From: Myxococcota bacterium | Lineage (GTDB): Bacteria > Myxococcota > JACRCW01 | DNA length: 64,000 nt | Assembly: GCA_040752415.1 (NCBI GenBank) | Contig: JBFMGU010000024.1 | Location: 1 to 64,000 of the forward strand | Reading direction: 5' to 3' | Shown here: positions 15,001-21,000 of the stretch, piece by piece | Layout: the number at the start of each line of letters is the position of its first letter | Numbering within the stretch: position 1 is the first letter of the stretch | Program-made: the position numbers

Positions 15001-18000
15001 GGCGCCGGGCTGAATGGCCGTGCCCGGGGTCAAGCCGAGGGGGCGGCTTCCGGGAGGTCCGCCTTGACACCCATCCGCCCGCCTTTCTACGGTGCCCGCC
15101 GCTTGTTCCCTCCTCGGGAAAGCGCCGCGACAAGCGCCTTTTCCATGGTCCTGGCGCGGCACTCCCGCGGCGGCCACTCCAGAGGCGTCCTCGTCGGAGG
15201 CGTCATTGCTGGCATTGAAATGGGATGGCCGTGGACATGACCCAAGCTTCCGCTCCCGCACCCCTGCCTGACCCCGCCACCCCCGCCGCCGTGGGTGCGC
15301 CGCGGCCGGAGCCCGAGCCCACCCGCGTGGGCATCCTGTGGCAGGCCCTCGCCCGGGTGCCGCCCGAGCGATTGGCCTTCACCTTCGTCGTGACGCTGGC
15401 GGCGAGCATGCTGCTGCCCTACCTGGGCGCGGTGGGGCTGTATGACCCGTGGGAGACGCACTACGCCGAGGTCAGCCGCGAGATGGTGGCGCGCGACGAC
15501 TACGTCCACCCGCACTGGAAGGAGCACTATTTCTTCTCCAAGCCCGTGCTGCTCTTCTGGCTGAGCGCGGTGGGCTTCAAGCTGCTGGACGTCGTCACCG
15601 GACAGATCAGCGGGCCCGGCAACTTCCCCGCCCTCACCGAGCTGGCCGCGCGCCTGCCCGTGGCGCTCATTGCGCTGCTGTGCGTGTTCTGCCTGTACCG
15701 CATGGTGAACCGCTTCTTCGGTCGCGCCGCGGCGGTGTTGAGCAGCGTGGTGTTGTGCACCATGCCGTTCTTCATCATGGTCGGGAGGCAGCACATCACC
15801 GACATGCCCTTCGTGGGCCTGATGACGGCGGGATTGTGCCTGATGGTGGAGTCGCTGTTCGGCACCGAGGAGGAAGCGAGCTCTCCGCTCACGAAGTTCT
15901 TCCTCGTCTGCCTCGCGCTCGTCACCGTGCCGCAGTACCTGCAGATCTGTCGGGGCACGCAGCTGCTCTCCGGGGTGGCGCCGGTGATGCGCTACGTGGT
16001 GTTCGCCGGGAGCCTCGTCGTGCTGGGCGCGGTGGGGATGTGGCTGATGAAGAGCGCCAGGGACAGTCGCGCGCACTTCTTCTACCTGCTGTGTGGCCTG
16101 GCCACGCTGGCCAAGGGGCTGCCGGGCATCCTGCTGCCGGGGCTCATCTGCCTCGCGTACACGGTGTGCTCGTGGGAGTGGTGGCGCCTGCGTCGCATCC
16201 GCGCCGTCACGGGTTCGATTGTGCTCTTGCTGGTGGCCGCGCCGTGGTTCGTGGTGATGAGCCTGTTCACCGGCCGTGACGACGAGCAGAAGACCTTCTT
16301 CCAGCGCTTCTGGATCCACGACCACCTGAACCGCCTGGGCGGCGGCGTGCACGGTGAGCGCGGCACGTTCGAGTACTACATCAAGCAGCTGGGCTTCGGG
16401 TGCATGCCGTGGAGCGGCCTGCTCCCGTTTGCGTGGCTGAAGATGGCGGTGCCGGAGCGTGAGGCCACCCGCGACGAGACGCAGCGCGCGGTGCGGCTCT
16501 TTGTGGCGTTGTGGGCGCTGACCTGCTTTGCGCTCTTCTCCATCTCCACGACGAAGTTCCACCACTACATCCTGCCCATGGTGCCGCCGCTCAGCATCTG
16601 CGCGGGCGTGTTCCTGGCCGAGCTGTGGGAGAAGCGTGAGAGCCCGCCGCTGCTGGTGGTGCTGGGGATGGCGATTGCGTCGGTGGTGATTGCGCAGGAC
16701 CTGTGGCGCAACCCGCACATGATCGTGGACCTCTTCACCTACCACTACGTGAGCTACAAGCCCGACTACTACATGCCCACCGACTGGCCCTACGGGCTGG
16801 CCTTTGGCGTGGTGGGGCTCGCCGCGGCGGGCGTGATGGTGGCGGGTGCGCTGGTGTCCAACGTGGAGAAGGTGCGGGAGCATCTCAACGCGCCGGTGCC
16901 GGGCGTGCTGGAGCCGGTGCGCTGGGTGCTGCGTGAGCTTGTGGAAGCGGTGATGTGGCTGGTGGAGCTGCCCACCGCGCTCGTGGTCAAGCCCGCGGCC
17001 CGGGCGGGGGGACGCATCTTCGTGACCGGCGCCGCGCTGTGCGGGCTGGCCATGGGCTACTTCCTCACCGACGTGTACTTCCTGAAGCTCGCCCCGCACT
17101 GGAGCCAGCGCTACCTGTTCAACACCTACTACTCCATGAAACAGGGCGACGAGCCCATCATCGCCTACCTCATGAACTGGCGCGGGGAGAGCTTCTACTC
17201 CAAGGGGCTGGACGCGCAGATCAATGACGGCAACCAGCTCAAGGCTCGCGTCAAGCAGCCCGGCCGGGAATTCATCCTGGTGGAGACCACGCGCTACAAG
17301 GGGCTGGAGAATACGTTGGGCGCGGACTTCAAGGGTAAGATCAACATTGTCGATAGGTCCAACAGCAAGTGGTACCTGGTGCTGGTGGACGAGTAAGCCA
17401 CGACGACGACGAGGAAAGGCACGCCATGACGCTCCTGAGGGGACATGTTGCAACCGCTCTTGTGGGCCTCACGCTGGTGACTGGCTGCGCCAAGGAGGAG
17501 ATCGTCCACGGGCTGAGCGAGTACGAGGCCAATGAGATCCTGGTGGTGTTGGAGGCCAACGGGCTCAAGCCGATCAAGGAGAAGGAGGAGGGCGGCCGCA
17601 CGGTGACGTACAAGGTGGTGATGCCCGGCGCGGAAGCCTCCGACGCGCGCAAGATCCTGGTGGACAACAAGCTGCCGCGCCCGCAGCAGATGGGCCTGGG
17701 CAAGGTCTACGACCCGGCCAACAAGGGCCTCATCCCCACCGCCACCGAGGAGAAGGCCGGCTACCAGATGGCGCTGCACGGCGAGATCGTGGCGAAGTTG
17801 AAGACCATCCCGGGCGTGCTGGAAGCACACGTCACCGTGGTGAAGCCGGACCGCGACATCGTCCGCGACCTCAACGACAAGCCGCCGCCCGCCACCGCTT
17901 CCGTCGTCATCCTGTACAACACCATCAACGGCACCAAGCCCTTCAAGGAGCAGGACATCCAGAAGCTGGTGGCCGCTTCCGTCGAGGGGATGGACCCCGC

Positions 18001-21000
18001 CAACGTCACCGTGGTGGCCACCGCGAACGTGCCGGCGGACCGCCAGGTGTCCACCGCGTCGGCGGCGGCGGGTGGTGAGGAGGGCGGGGGCGGCATCGAC
18101 AAGGCCAAGGCGCCCAAGGTGATGGGCGTGGTGGTGGCCGACGACGGCGAGAAGAACAAGCTCAACCGCCTCATGGGCATGGGCGCCGGTGCCATTGGCA
18201 TCCTGCTCCTCGCGGTGTTGATCCTGCTGGGCGCGTTCACCAAGGTGCGGGGGAAGGTGACGCAGCTCAACGCGGAAGTGGCGGCGCTGAAGAAGGCGCG
18301 CGCGCGTGCGGCAGACGCTCCCCCGGCGGCGTGAGGGCCTGACCGATGCTGGGCGGCCTGCTGTACCCGCTGGACCGTGAGCAGAGCGCGCTGCTGCTGG
18401 CCGCGCTCACCTTCGGCGGCAGCGACGGACACCAGCTCCTGGACCTCCTCCCCGACGAGGCCGCCGCACCCCTGAAGGCCAAGGTGCAGGCCTTCCAGGA
18501 CATCCCCAAGGAGAAGCGCATCCCGCTGATGCTGCGTGAGCTCAAGCGCTACATGCAGTACCGGCACACGCGCGGCATCGAGGGTGTGGACCCCTCCTGG
18601 CTGGCGGCGGGCTTCCGCGGGGAGAGCCCGCGCGTGGTGGCGGCGGCACTCATGCACCTGCCGGCGAGCCTGGCGCGCCAGATCGTCGACAAGCTGCCGC
18701 AGGAACTGAAGGGCCAGCTCCCGCCGCGCTCCGAGCTGCAGAAGGTGCCGCTGGAGATCCTCAAGCTGGTGCGCGCCCGCTACGACGAGAAGTTCGCCTC
18801 CATGCCGGTGCTGGAAACCGAGCTGAAGGTGATGAGCTTCAAGTCGCTGATGGTGCTGGAAGGCAAGGAGCTGGTGGCGGTGACGCGTGCCATCGGCATC
18901 GACGAGCTGGCCTGCGCCTTCGCCGCGGTGGGCAAGCGCGCCCTGGCGGAGCTGCTGGCGCGACTGCCGCGCAACAACGCCGAGGAGCTGATTGCGGCGG
19001 TGCGTCGCGTGAACCTGGCCGACGTGGAAGAGCTGAAGGTGGCCCAGAAGTTCCTCAGCCGTGTGCTGGACGGCTTCACGCACACCGAGGAGCTGTTCCA
19101 GAAGGCCGGCCTCTACCGCCTGGCCAAGGCGCTTCCGTACGAGGACGCGGACCTGGCACGCCAGATCTGTCAGCGCTTCCCACGCGCCCACGGCAAGCTG
19201 CTGCAGGAGTACATGCAGAAGGCCAGGGACCTGCGCGAGAGCTGGCCCGAGGAGCGCGCGCAGCGCACACAGGACGCCATCCTGGACCAGGTCAAGGAGC
19301 TGGCCGGTCGCGGGAAGATTGCCAGCAAGTACCTGGCCTGTGAGTTCCAGTACCGCGCGCGCTGAGCGCATCGTGGTGGCCGAGGCCGCGTCGGGAGATG
19401 TCGCGGGTTCGCCGCGCGGAGCGTTGGGGGCTTTGCGTCTCCCCCGGCTGATTGGCTAGCGTGCCGCCCCGTCATGGACCTGGGACGCGTCATTGGAACC
19501 GTGGTGGCCACGCGCAAGGTGGACGGGCTCACCGGCGTGAAGCTGCTGGTGGTGGAGCCGCTCAACCACAAGCGTGAGGTGGTGGGGCCGCCCTTCGTGG
19601 CCATTGACGTGGTGCAGGCCGGGCCCGGCGCCATTGTGAACTGGGTGGCCAGCCGGGAGGCCGCCATGGCGCTCCCCGACGCCTTTGTGCCGGTGGACGC
19701 GGCCATCGTCGGGCTGGTGGACAGCATCGACGTGGAGGCGCGCCGATGAGGTACTGCGAGGTGCTGGGCAGCGTGACCCAGACCATCCATCACCCCGACT
19801 ACGACGGGCAGAAGCTCCTGGTGGTCCAGCCGCTGGACGAGCAGAGCAAGCCCACCGGGAACAGCTTCCTCGCCGTGGACAACGTGCAGGCCGGCCCGGG
19901 CGACCGCGTGCTGGTGCTCATGGAAGGCAATGGCATCCGGCAGATCTTCGGGAAGAAGCAGCTGCCCATCCAGAGCCTGATTGTCGGGATTGTCGACGCG
20001 GCGGAGCTGGGCTGAGGCCATGCCGTACCACCGCCTGCGCCAGGATGTGGCCCGCTACGCCCAGATGCTGCACGAGCGCGGCTGGGTGGCCAACCACGAC
20101 GGCAACGTCTCCGTCCGCGACGCCCCCGGCGAGTTCCTGTGCACGCCCACCGCATGGAGCAAGCGGCTGGTGACGCCGGAGGACGTGCTGGTGGTGGACA
20201 TGAGCGGCAAGGTCCGCTCCGGGCGGCGCAAGCCCTTTGGGGAATGGCACCTGCACAAGGCGGTCTACACCGCGCGCCCCGACGCCATGGCGGTCCTGCA
20301 CGCCCATCCCCCGACGGCAACCGGCTTCGCGGTGGCGGGTCGGAGCCTGGGGCGCCCGGCGATTGCGGAGATGGTGGTCTCCATTGGCGAGGAGATCCCG
20401 CTGCTGCCCTTCACGCCGCCCCGGTGCGACAAGGGCGACGAGACCCTGCGCAAGGCGGTGGAGATCCACGACGCGGTGGTGCTGGCCAACCACGGCGTCA
20501 TCACGCTGGGCGACGACCTGGAGCAGGCGTTCCTGCGCATGGAGCTGGTGGAGCACTGGGCGCGCATCCTGCTCACCGCGACGCAGCTGGGGGGCGCGGT
20601 GCCGCTGCCCGGTGACGACGTGAAGAAGCTGCTGGAAGCGCGCACCAAGGCGGGGCTGGGGCCGCAGGGGCGCAGCCCGTTCAAGAAGGCGTGACCACGG
20701 GCGTCAGCCCTTTCGGACTGCGGTATGAAGTACCGCTTTGACTTGGGCGGATGTTGTCGTGGGACGGGCCGGGCGGCTTGAGCGAAAGCGGCACTTCATG
20801 CACGCAGTCCGAAAGGGCTGGCGCCCGTTGGATTCGCTCCCCTCTGCTCGCATCAGGGCGCCAGGGGCAACAACGGCGCGAGCTTTGGGAGTGCGTGTGC
20901 AAGCGCCCCGTGCGGCAACCCCAGCGCAGTGGGGGCGCGCAGCACCGCTTTGGCTCAGAGGCTCCGTTCGCCACCGCGGCTCCCCGTCGGGCGGGCGGTC

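What a model noticed while it worked through the whole genome (the two positions that open the first line are those of the whole stretch)
17426..19365. FliG-like protein and flagellum-like C-ring genes in a non-flagellar T3SS that is scattered over eight loci
Beside sctJ lies g03673, a full-length FliG-like protein in the SctK position; with a FliM-FliN-type SctQ and a FliO gene (C143) the export platform keeps flagellar C-ring features. The core genes are dispersed singly or in small groups among unrelated genes (C138 sctV, C491 sctN, C278 sctU, C143 sctQ-fliO-sctRST, C157 sctJ-fliG-like and sctO, C493 sctL, C162 needle cassette, C401 chaperones), separate from the flagellar genes on C24.
Evidence so far: Pfam FliG_C E 2e-9, FliG_M 1.7e-5; model pLDDT 87; top six structural matches are FliG (Z 10.6-8.1; best rmsd 1.7 over 75 residues), seventh PscK/SctK (Z 7.8); found in 28 of 34 Myxococcota, next to sctJ in 26 of 29 loci; sctV, sctN and sctO flanked by unrelated genes within contigs.
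(Added by a program. Inside this text positions count along the whole contig: contig position 1 is position 1 of the stretch shown here. "Call 12" and the like, gene names such as g00115 and contig names such as C1 are that model's own, and its searches are not shown. The text may have been shortened before it was handed on; [...] marks where a part breaks off. The agent that wrote the report below was given it as the finding of a first reader that could run no searches.)

Follow-up and report, generated by a model that had tools for sequence, protein, structure and literature searches.

The report
Flagellar-rotor relic in predator secretion system
A protein descended from the flagellar rotor protein FliG sits in the non-flagellar protein-export machine of myxobacteria and their relatives, where it probably docks the cytoplasmic sorting parts rather than turning anything; it looks like a surviving link between flagella and bacterial injection needles, and it can be tested in a laboratory predator.

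Summary
Largely confirmed, with corrections. Window 18346-19365 follows sctJ and is a true FliG homologue: the family profile hits FliG at E 5e-21 and no SctK in the PDB. It is not a full-length FliG. It reads N-like, FliG_M, FliG_C, second FliG_C. It lacks the ~50-residue M-C linker and the torque charges, and its model matches PscK/SctK as one body (165 residues, 4.3 A). The genome has a separate flagellar fliG. The system groups, in SctN and SctV trees, with the 'long' myxobacterial locus, which by content is the predation T3SS*. Clustered relatives keep flagellar gene order (J-K-L-N-O-P-Q-fliO-RSTU). The family was found in 82 of 151 phylum genomes; sctJ is adjacent in 21 of 21 loci read. 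Dispersal is real: 11 loci on 10 contigs here, and megabases apart on one contig in G032. New here: a sigma28-type promoter motif (27 sites, 26 intergenic) links the scattered late genes. There is also an unproven needle candidate, and no SctD or SctC was found. FliO in these systems, SctK-FliG structural likeness and scattered T3SS are already in print; a 2012 paper says Myxo systems lack FliG. No earlier scan note on it.

The parts
17426..18334 (+). sctJ, inner-membrane ring lipoprotein (302 aa; lipobox Cys21, C-terminal membrane helix, short cytoplasmic tail)
   Evidence: Pfam YscJ_FliF E 1.7e-20; TIGR02544 125 bits (cut-off 162) against FliF 25 bits; Cys21 invariant in 18 of 18 aligned homologues
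18236..18331 (+). SctJ cytoplasmic tail, a basic amphipathic helix; candidate anchor for the FliG-like protein (inferred, untested)
   Evidence: Similar tail in 14 of 18 aligned SctJ, missing in 4 of 18
18346..19365 (+). FliG-derived SctK-position protein (339 aa)
18346..18570 (+). N-terminal helical domain (aa 1-75); weakly related to FliG repeats, not clearly FliG_N
   Evidence: hhalign probability 68% to FliG_N and 81% to FliG_M; no FliG_N structural match for aa 1-76
18571..18810 (+). FliG middle-domain homologue (aa 76-155) with E-S-P-R at the place of FliG E-H-P-Q
   Evidence: hhalign 96.7%; Z 10.1, 1.9 A over 75 residues; E93 in 113 of 113 and P95 in 108 of 113 rows
18826..19071 (+). 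FliG C-terminal-domain homologue, first copy (aa 161-242); torque-helix charges not kept
   Evidence: hhalign 97.3%; column counts
19087..19326 (+). second FliG_C-like copy (aa 248-327)
   Evidence: Pfam FliG_C best stretch 248-325; hhalign 95.6% to the first copy and 83% to FliG
8548..9075 (+). sctO (ATPase stalk), a separate T3SS locus on the same contig, five called genes away from sctJ
   Evidence: Pfam YscO-like E 6.2e-22; hit by clustered relatives' SctO; gene calls
15225..17396 (+). membrane glycosyltransferase (PMT_2) 29 bases upstream of sctJ; neighbour, not shown to be part of the system
   Evidence: also upstream of sctJ in two same-class genomes but not in the same-family locus L034

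Best explanation
The protein is the SctK equivalent of the long-type (T3SS*) non-flagellar type III system of Myxococcota, and it descends from flagellar FliG. Shown: homology, position, lineage and loss of rotor features. Inferred mechanism: (1) Its FliG_M domain, with the kept E-x-P-R motif, binds the FliM-like N-terminal domain of SctQ. (2) SctQ holds SctL, SctN and SctO under the SctRSTUV gate, as in both flagella and injectisomes. (3) It does not rotate, because the stator-contacting charges are gone. (4) With the M-C linker lost and a second C repeat packed against the first, it folds into the compact SctK arrangement. (5) No SctD was found, so its membrane anchor is probably SctJ itself, FliF-FliG style; this is the weakest step, about 35%. 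(6) The scattered genes stay coordinated because a FliA-like sigma factor in the C162 cassette reads a gCAAC-N16-CGATA promoter before late substrates (rod, needle candidate, chaperone-linked proteins). The likely role, by orthology to T3SS*, is contact-dependent export for prey lysis; not tested here.
For: Sequence. The family profile finds 15 FliG sequences in the PDB (best E 5.1e-21) and no SctK up to E 10. It scores the genome's own FliG at 61.6 bits against YscK 3.8, NolU 3.3, HrpB4 1.9 and no MxiK hit. 88 of 108 members match FliG_C and 80 of 108 match FliG_M. Controls: 0 of 4 proteobacterial SctK match FliG families and 0 of 5 SctQ match FliM. Not flagellar: TIGR fliG 24 bits against cut-off 227, while the C357 FliG scores 233; present in genomes with no FliF/FlhA/FliI second copy such as G004, G014 and G020. 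Position: sctJ is directly upstream in 20 of 20 loci and in G012; order I-J-K-L-N-O-P in G008 and G004, and on to Q-fliO-RSTU in G035 and G104. Structure: PscK aligns over 165 of 179 residues at 4.3 A across aa 74-334, while full FliG M-C chains align at 15-22 A. Torque columns R, D/E, D/E, R/K are kept in 18 of 18 flagellar FliG but read N, A, A, D here, with A in 106 of 113 and D in 102 of 113 close rows. Lineage: own SctN lies in a 100/99 clade with the long-locus SctN, and own SctV likewise (SH-aLRT 98, quick tree). Promoter: top motif found de novo; 27 genome sites, 26 intergenic, against 1-14 sites and 0-6 intergenic for spacers 10-22; before the needle candidate in G035, G012 and G104 and in 14 of 52 metagenome loci against at most 2 for other spacers.
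Against: The PscK match (Z 7.5) is below the FliG matches and in the range the tool calls common for helical proteins. FliG is flexible, so high rigid-body rmsd against it says little. No Pfam SctK family matches any of 108 members. The SctJ tail is missing in 4 of 18 aligned homologues that still have the FliG-like gene. Published reviews list an SctD for M. xanthus T3SS*, whereas I found only FHA-domain matches in 41 genomes, so a divergent SctD may have been missed. 3 of 21 genomes with the protein show no sctV over cut-off, and 3 of 21 genomes with sctV lack a strong match. The motif was not seen before the needle candidate in G004 or G008_F2, or in the short-type loci. Nothing here shows expression, binding or secretion.
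Confidence: 0.68

Rival explanations
1. The system keeps a continuous flagellum-like C-ring: the FliG-like protein polymerises head to tail under the SctJ ring and carries a full ring of FliM-FliN-type SctQ.
For: FliG_M and FliG_C folds and the E-x-P motif are kept. SctQ keeps a recognisable FliM domain that canonical SctQ lacks. G004 even has separate FliM-like and FliN-like genes. No SctD was found.
Against: The ~50-aa linker that lets FliG domains swap between subunits (role recalled) is absent; the model matches PscK as one compact body.
Confidence: 0.2
2. History differs from 'ancestral retention': the long-type system took up a flagellar FliG later, replacing an ordinary short SctK, so it is a chimera rather than a missing link.
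For: Short-type loci carry a shorter post-sctJ protein (180-273 aa frames) that matches only weakly. Many carriers also have flagella. In the SctV tree the short-type rows lie nearer FlhA than the long-type rows do (weak support, long branches).
Against: The protein is far from the genome's own FliG (BLASTP E 0.10). FliM-like SctQ, FliO, a FliA-like sigma and flagellar gene order are kept together, which one retention explains more simply. The short proteins still score above background with the same profile (17.7-23 bits), as expected of truncated relatives.
Confidence: 0.12
3. It is a second flagellar FliG paralogue that merely lies next to sctJ.
For: Automatic names call many homologues 'flagellar motor switch protein FliG'; the genome has a full flagellar set.
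Against: Next to sctJ in 21 of 21 loci read; present in genomes without flagellar FliF/FlhA/FliI; torque charges lost; the flagellar operon has its own fliG.
Confidence: 0.03
4. The scattered genes are a decaying relic of a once clustered T3SS.
For: The cluster is broken into 11 or more loci; no secretin, SctD or proven needle.
Against: All core frames scanned are open; GC3 is 0.87-0.96, like flagellar genes; SctN and SctV branches are short (0.08 and 0.14); sctV and sctN pass curated cut-offs; a conserved promoter motif ties the pieces.
Confidence: 0.04

Closest known systems
Myxococcus xanthus T3SS* (MXAN_2434-2464; 'long' Myxo locus of Abby and Rocha 2012)
   Same: SctN/SctV clade with long loci of same-phylum 9-Mb genomes; SctI, J, Q, RSTUV, N, L, several LcrH-type chaperones, FliO; no SctC found
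   Different: Here scattered over 11 or more loci and coexisting with a full flagellum; the FliG-like protein lacks the long C-terminal extension of the family-f11 forms (339 against 540-775 aa). Published descriptions I read list no SctK or FliG homologue, no needle candidate and no dedicated sigma factor.
Flagellar FliG (TIGR00207) in the FliF-FliG-FliM-FliN switch
   Same: M and C domain folds, E-x-P motif, F-x-[DE] motif in part, gene position after the ring gene and before fliH/sctL
   Different: No M-C linker, duplicated C domain, unclear N domain, torque charges lost, 24 against 227 bits cut-off, partner is SctJ not FliF
SctK (PscK, YscK, OrgA/MxiK, HrpB4; Chlamydiota candidate of bioRxiv 2025.03.14.643159)
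   Same: Position between sctJ and sctL; overall arrangement of aa 74-334 like PscK
   Different: About 130 aa longer, clearly FliG-like in sequence while canonical SctK is not; its usual anchor SctD was not found
Scattered T3SS of Chlamydiales and Hamiltonella (Abby and Rocha 2012)
   Same: Core genes split over several loci
   Different: Different lineage, finer splitting (sctV, N, U, O, P as single genes), no SctC, apparent sigma28-type regulon; I had no chlamydial sequences to compare

Membership tests
Flagellar FliG | passes TIGR00207 cut-off | tested here: not met
   24.1 bits against 226.7; own C357 FliG 232.6
Flagellar FliG | M and C domain homology | tested here: met
   hhalign 96.7% and 97.3%; profile E 5.1e-21; Z 10.1
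Flagellar FliG | N-M-linker-C architecture | tested here: not met
   FliG 192-241 has no counterpart; C domain duplicated
Flagellar FliG | FliF-binding N domain | tested here: inconclusive
   68% to FliG_N but 81% to FliG_M
Flagellar FliG | charged torque-helix residues (which columns: recalled) | tested here: not met
   kept in 18 of 18 FliG, replaced in the family
Flagellar FliG | encoded after fliF in a flagellar operon | tested here: not met
   after sctJ in 21 of 21 loci
SctK | gene between sctJ and sctL | tested here: met
   G008, G004, G035, G022, G104; here after sctJ only
SctK | PscK-like fold | tested here: inconclusive
   Z 7.5, 165 of 179 residues, 4.3 A: suggestive, moderate Z
SctK | match to YscK, OrgA_MxiK or HrpB4 profiles | tested here: not met
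   0 of 108 members at E 0.05 among the 25 of 27 families shown; under 4 bits in the reverse test
SctK | binds SctD and SctQ | not testable with these tools
Long Myxo NF-T3SS (T3SS*) | non-flagellar SctV/SctN in the long-locus clade | tested here: met
   hrcV 832 bits (cut-off 692), SctN 614 (605); trees
Long Myxo NF-T3SS (T3SS*) | SctI, J, L, N, Q, RSTUV and LcrH-type chaperones | tested here: met
Long Myxo NF-T3SS (T3SS*) | no T3SS secretin | tested here: met
   two secretins found, best models GspD and PilQ; genome 96.8% complete
Long Myxo NF-T3SS (T3SS*) | one conserved gene cluster | tested here: not met
   11 loci on 10 contigs
Long Myxo NF-T3SS (T3SS*) | needed for prey lysis together with Kil | not testable with these tools
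   function known only from M. xanthus papers; Kil genes not searched here
SctF needle subunit (C162:2902-3405) | sequence or fold match to SctF | tested here: inconclusive
   no Pfam/NCBIfam hit; its profile does not score YscF or MxiH; weak PF09392 hits on orthologues, E 0.0018-0.09; Atlas neighbours at 0.88 with needle family on 19%; model pLDDT 55
SctF needle subunit (C162:2902-3405) | flanked by a small helical gene and a YscG/CdsG-type chaperone | tested here: met
   next gene's best T3SS model CdsG E 1.6e-8, below cut-off; same order in G008, G004, G035, G104; yscE-F-G order

The most novel reading that the evidence does not exclude
The long Myxococcota T3SS is a living intermediate between flagellum and injectisome: a non-rotating FliG-FliM-FliN switch docked straight onto SctJ without SctD, with FliO and a FliA-type regulon, that is not needleless but builds a filament from an SctF-like subunit and a family of paralogues sharing its C-terminal helix, used against prey cells.
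Probability: 0.3. Interest if true: 0.9.

Novelty: new variant of a known kind. Interest (0 to 1): 0.72.

Why it matters
SctK had been tied to FliG only by structural likeness. Here a widespread family links them by sequence, in the flagellar gene position, in the lineage placed at the base of non-flagellar T3SS, and against a published statement that these systems lack FliG. It names testable genes in the model predator M. xanthus: by counting from sctQ = MXAN_2445, the adaptor would be about MXAN_2440, the sigma factor about 2437 and the needle candidate about 2434 (inference, not looked up). The promoter motif gives a short list of candidate substrates for a system whose effectors are unknown. 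It also shows that cluster-based scanners will miss this T3SS in many uncultured Myxococcota.

Tried and rejected
Contig-break artefact: rejected. 9 of 11 loci have whole called genes on both sides; only sctL and the C162 cassette reach or nearly reach a contig end, and relatives with long contigs show the same spread. Foldseek alone gave no match under E 0.001; its 13 best rows are FliG. Pfam FliG_C genome search missed the window gene and found only C357. SctD: the periplasmic model found nothing here and nothing in controls, so it is uninformative; TIGR02500 gave only N-terminal FHA matches in 6 of 41 genomes; 51 FHA matches in this genome were not checked one by one. Needle candidate: PDB profile search, Pfam scan, own profile against YscF/MxiH and a fold (single helix, pLDDT 55) all failed to decide; I ran no fold search on that poor model. 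Named-genome scan returned one relative only. The careful SctV tree did not finish; the quick tree is quoted. The promoter motif is absent from 220 bases upstream of five flagellar genes. Three look-ups of earlier scan notes gave nothing relevant.
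Full report
Observation. The window is contig C157 of an 11.0-Mb, 520-contig genome, 96.8% complete. 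It holds sctJ at 17426-18334 and, 11 bases on, an intact 339-aa ORF at 18346-19365. Pfam gives FliG_C E 2.1e-9 and FliG_M E 1.7e-5. Neighbours are unrelated: a PMT_2 glycosyltransferase upstream; two EutN/CcmL genes and a class II aldolase downstream. sctO lies alone at 8548-9075.

Two separate type III systems. A full flagellar set lies on C357 (flgB, flgC, fliE, fliF, fliG) and C24 (fliH onward, with motAB, fliM, fliN, fliO, flhA, flagellin, fliD). The C357 FliG scores 232.6 bits on TIGR00207 (cut-off 226.7); the window protein scores 24.1, and the two are not alike by BLASTP (E 0.10). The second system has sctV (hrcV 832 bits, cut-off 692), sctN (614, cut-off 605), sctR, S, T, U, L, Q, fliO, I, O and a probable P with a FliK-type C-terminal domain. 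Only two secretins were found, best matched by GspD and PilQ. No full-length SctD was found in 41 genomes; 6 had FHA-only matches.

Homology to FliG. A profile of 113 close homologues finds 13 FliG-containing PDB sequences among 14 hits (best E 3.5e-10). A profile of 108 diverse representatives finds 15 (best E 5.1e-21) and no SctK up to E 10. It scores the genome's FliG at 61.6 bits and YscK, NolU and HrpB4 at under 4, with no MxiK hit. 88 of 108 members match FliG_C and 80 match FliG_M. As controls, none of 4 proteobacterial SctK matches a FliG family, and none of 5 SctQ matches Pfam FliM, whereas this SctQ does at E 1.5e-14.

Architecture. Profile-profile alignment to 18 flagellar FliG gives aa 77-149 = FliG 118-191 (96.7%), aa 161-242 = FliG 242-323 (97.3%) and aa 248-327 = FliG 258-333 (83%; 95.6% to the first copy). 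The first 70 residues match FliG_N at 68% and FliG_M at 81%. So FliG 192-241 is gone and the C domain is doubled: same length, different build. E-H-P-Q of FliG reads E-S-P-R, with E in 113 of 113 and P in 108 of 113 close rows (106 and 94 of 108 distant rows). The four torque-helix columns (their role is recalled, not from a call) are R, D/E, D/E, R/K in all 18 FliG but N, A, A, D here. The model (pLDDT 92) matches six FliG chains at Z 10.1-8.1 and PscK at Z 7.5. FliG fits domain by domain (1.9-2.7 A) but not whole (15-22 A); PscK fits across aa 74-334 (165 of 179 residues, 4.3 A). These Z values are moderate, and FliG is flexible. I read the protein as FliG in sequence and SctK in arrangement.

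Range and gene order. The protein finds relatives in 21 of 41 genomes; the profile finds them in 82 of 151 phylum genomes at E 1e-25. sctJ is directly upstream in 20 of 20 fetched loci including the own and in G012. Named homologues come from Myxococcus, Corallococcus, Stigmatella, Archangium and Cystobacter, mostly 'hypothetical', a few auto-named FliG-domain. Atlas neighbours include a Planctomycetota cluster (0.89, a lead only). Where clustered, the order is small helical gene, needle candidate, CdsG-like chaperone, helical gene, FliA-like sigma, I, J, FliG-like, L, N, O, P, Q, fliO, R, S, T, U. This mirrors fliF-G-H-I-J-K...M-N-O-P-Q-R-flhB as seen on C357/C24. G004 has separate FliM-like and FliN-like genes. 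Genomes G035, G012 and G104 carry two T3SS loci: a long one with this gene, sctL, sctN and several LcrH-type chaperones, and a short one, which in G035 lacks sctL and sctN and has a 180-aa post-sctJ protein that scores 17.7 bits. Own SctN falls in a 100/99 clade of 20 rows with the long-locus SctN, 19 of them from carriers and one a long branch (G011). All 28 Myxococcota non-flagellar rows group apart from 4 FliI and 5 proteobacterial rows (37 rows; G029, G036 and several short-type and flagellar rows were not included). The quick SctV tree agrees (98). No chlamydial rows were available.

Link to the known system. Papers give T3SS* as MXAN_2434-2464 with sctQ = MXAN_2445 (PMC10196010, passages) and a deletion of 2438-2451 (PMC12075869, passages). 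In G104, sctI to the FlhB-C-like gene spans 14 genes with sctQ eighth, which fits 2438-2451 and 2445. By that count the FliG-like gene is about MXAN_2440, the sigma about 2437 and the needle candidate about 2434. This is inference; I could not read the M. xanthus annotation.

Dispersal. There are 11 loci on 10 contigs; 9 have whole called genes on both sides. In G032 one 7.3-Mb contig has the needle candidate at 1.99 Mb, J-K at 4.05, N at 4.35 and Q-U-V at 6.40; a second sctV lies at 3.98 Mb. G105 and G081 have K and N 100 and 74 kb apart on one contig, with V, U and the needle candidate on other contigs. In G075 K is on one of two contigs and V, U, N on the other. G104 has all within 25 kb. 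Frames are open and GC3 is native.

A shared promoter. Among 26 upstream regions the top enriched feature was CAAC-N16-CGAT(A), before the needle candidate, sctI and two C401 genes (these four defined the motif). Genome-wide it occurs 27 times, 26 between genes; other spacers from 10 to 22 give 1-14 sites, 0-6 intergenic. It recurs before the needle candidate in G035, G012 and G104, and in 14 of 52 metagenome loci against at most 2 for other spacers, but in only some of 19 relative genes checked. CGATA resembles the sigma28 -10 box (recalled), and the cassette's sigma is FliA-like. The 21 downstream proteins over 60 aa have S/T/N/Q/P/G-rich N-termini (0.47 against 0.32; 0 of 2000 samples reach it), although several look like signal-peptide proteins. 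The motif was not seen before five flagellar genes.

Needle candidate. C162:2902-3405 (167 aa) has homologues in 34 of 41 genomes and sits between a small helical gene and a CdsG-like chaperone, like yscE-F-G. Direct tests are weak or negative. I give it about 55%. At least seven other proteins here end in a similar helix.

Mechanism. Shown: FliG homology, SctK position, loss of rotor features, long-locus lineage, dispersal, a conserved promoter-like motif. Inferred: M domain binds the FliM-like part of SctQ (a like contact is described for OrgA-SpaO in PMC9907115, passages); the platform carries SctL-N-O; anchoring on the SctJ tail (kept in 14 of 18 aligned SctJ) is possible but untested; a role in prey lysis rests on orthology. 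Complex modelling was not available.

What is in print. Abby and Rocha 2012 (PMC3459982; passages and section 9) place Myxo systems at the base of non-flagellar T3SS, state that they lack FliG, SctF and secretin, and report scattered systems in Chlamydiales. FliO in Myxococcota T3SS is published (bioRxiv 2025.05.06.652439, passages). A chlamydial SctK candidate with a C-terminal lobe and structural likeness to FliG and YscK families is in bioRxiv 2025.03.14.643159 (passages). PMC10433427 (passages) lists T3SS* parts with SctD but no SctK or needle. I also read passages of PMC12075869, PMC5073101, PMC4832279 and PMC11509652. Ten searches showed no paper naming a FliG homologue, needle candidate or sigma regulon in this system. 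I did not see Thiery 2022, Konovalova 2010 or the PscK structure paper, nor any figures or supplements; these may already note part of this.

Verdict. A new variant of a known system, with a real evolutionary link and concrete tests in M. xanthus. Interest 0.72.

Noticed in passing
G000 C162:3458 and :975, C401:43760 and :42554, and 23 further sites: Promoter-like motif CAAC-N16-CGATA, 26 of 27 sites intergenic; downstream genes are candidate T3SS substrates under the FliA-like sigma of C162:1019-1924.
   Followed up: yes
G000 C162:2902-3405 (L010): Needle (SctF) candidate, 167 aa, Gly-rich middle and a conserved C-terminal helix; homologues also named from Acidobacteriota; present in both long and short loci of 'needleless' systems.
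   Followed up: partly
G000 C401:41200-42471, C32:6983-8185, C499:47049-48392, C41:9295-10842, C72:3762-4760, C417:178-1893, C82:3779-5617, C454:386-1420: Dispersed family of 330-610-aa proteins ending in a needle-like helix; G035 has three 72-aa versions inside its long locus. Possible filament or tip subunits with variable passengers.
   Followed up: partly
L052:3699-5468 (G004): A protein matching Pfam IpgD (E 1.6e-29) lies between sctP and the FliM-like gene of a 3.4-Mb genome, hinting at a eukaryotic target for that lineage's system.
   Followed up: no
L052:1579-3016 (G004): SctQ is split into separate FliM-like and FliN-like genes, as in flagella.
   Followed up: no
G000 C493:39837-41328: sctL is followed by a second, divergent SctL-like frame that runs to the contig end.
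   Followed up: partly
G000 C278:929-1348 (L009): CesT-type chaperone gene (Pfam E 3e-27) beside pspA, two genes from sctU.
   Followed up: no
window 19474-20694: Two EutN/CcmL microcompartment vertex genes and a class II aldolase right after the FliG-like gene; not seen beside it in the relatives' loci checked.
   Followed up: partly
window 32958-41439: Cluster of multiheme cytochrome genes including two MtrC/MtrF-like proteins, one with collagen repeats; possible extracellular electron transfer.
   Followed up: no
G075, G039, G032, G050: Family-f6 genomes carry extra sctV-like genes (up to five in G075) away from the main T3SS genes.
   Followed up: no
G000 C357/C24: No CGATA box was seen within 220 bases upstream of fliC, fliD, flgK or motA although the cluster has its own FliA-like gene.
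   Followed up: no
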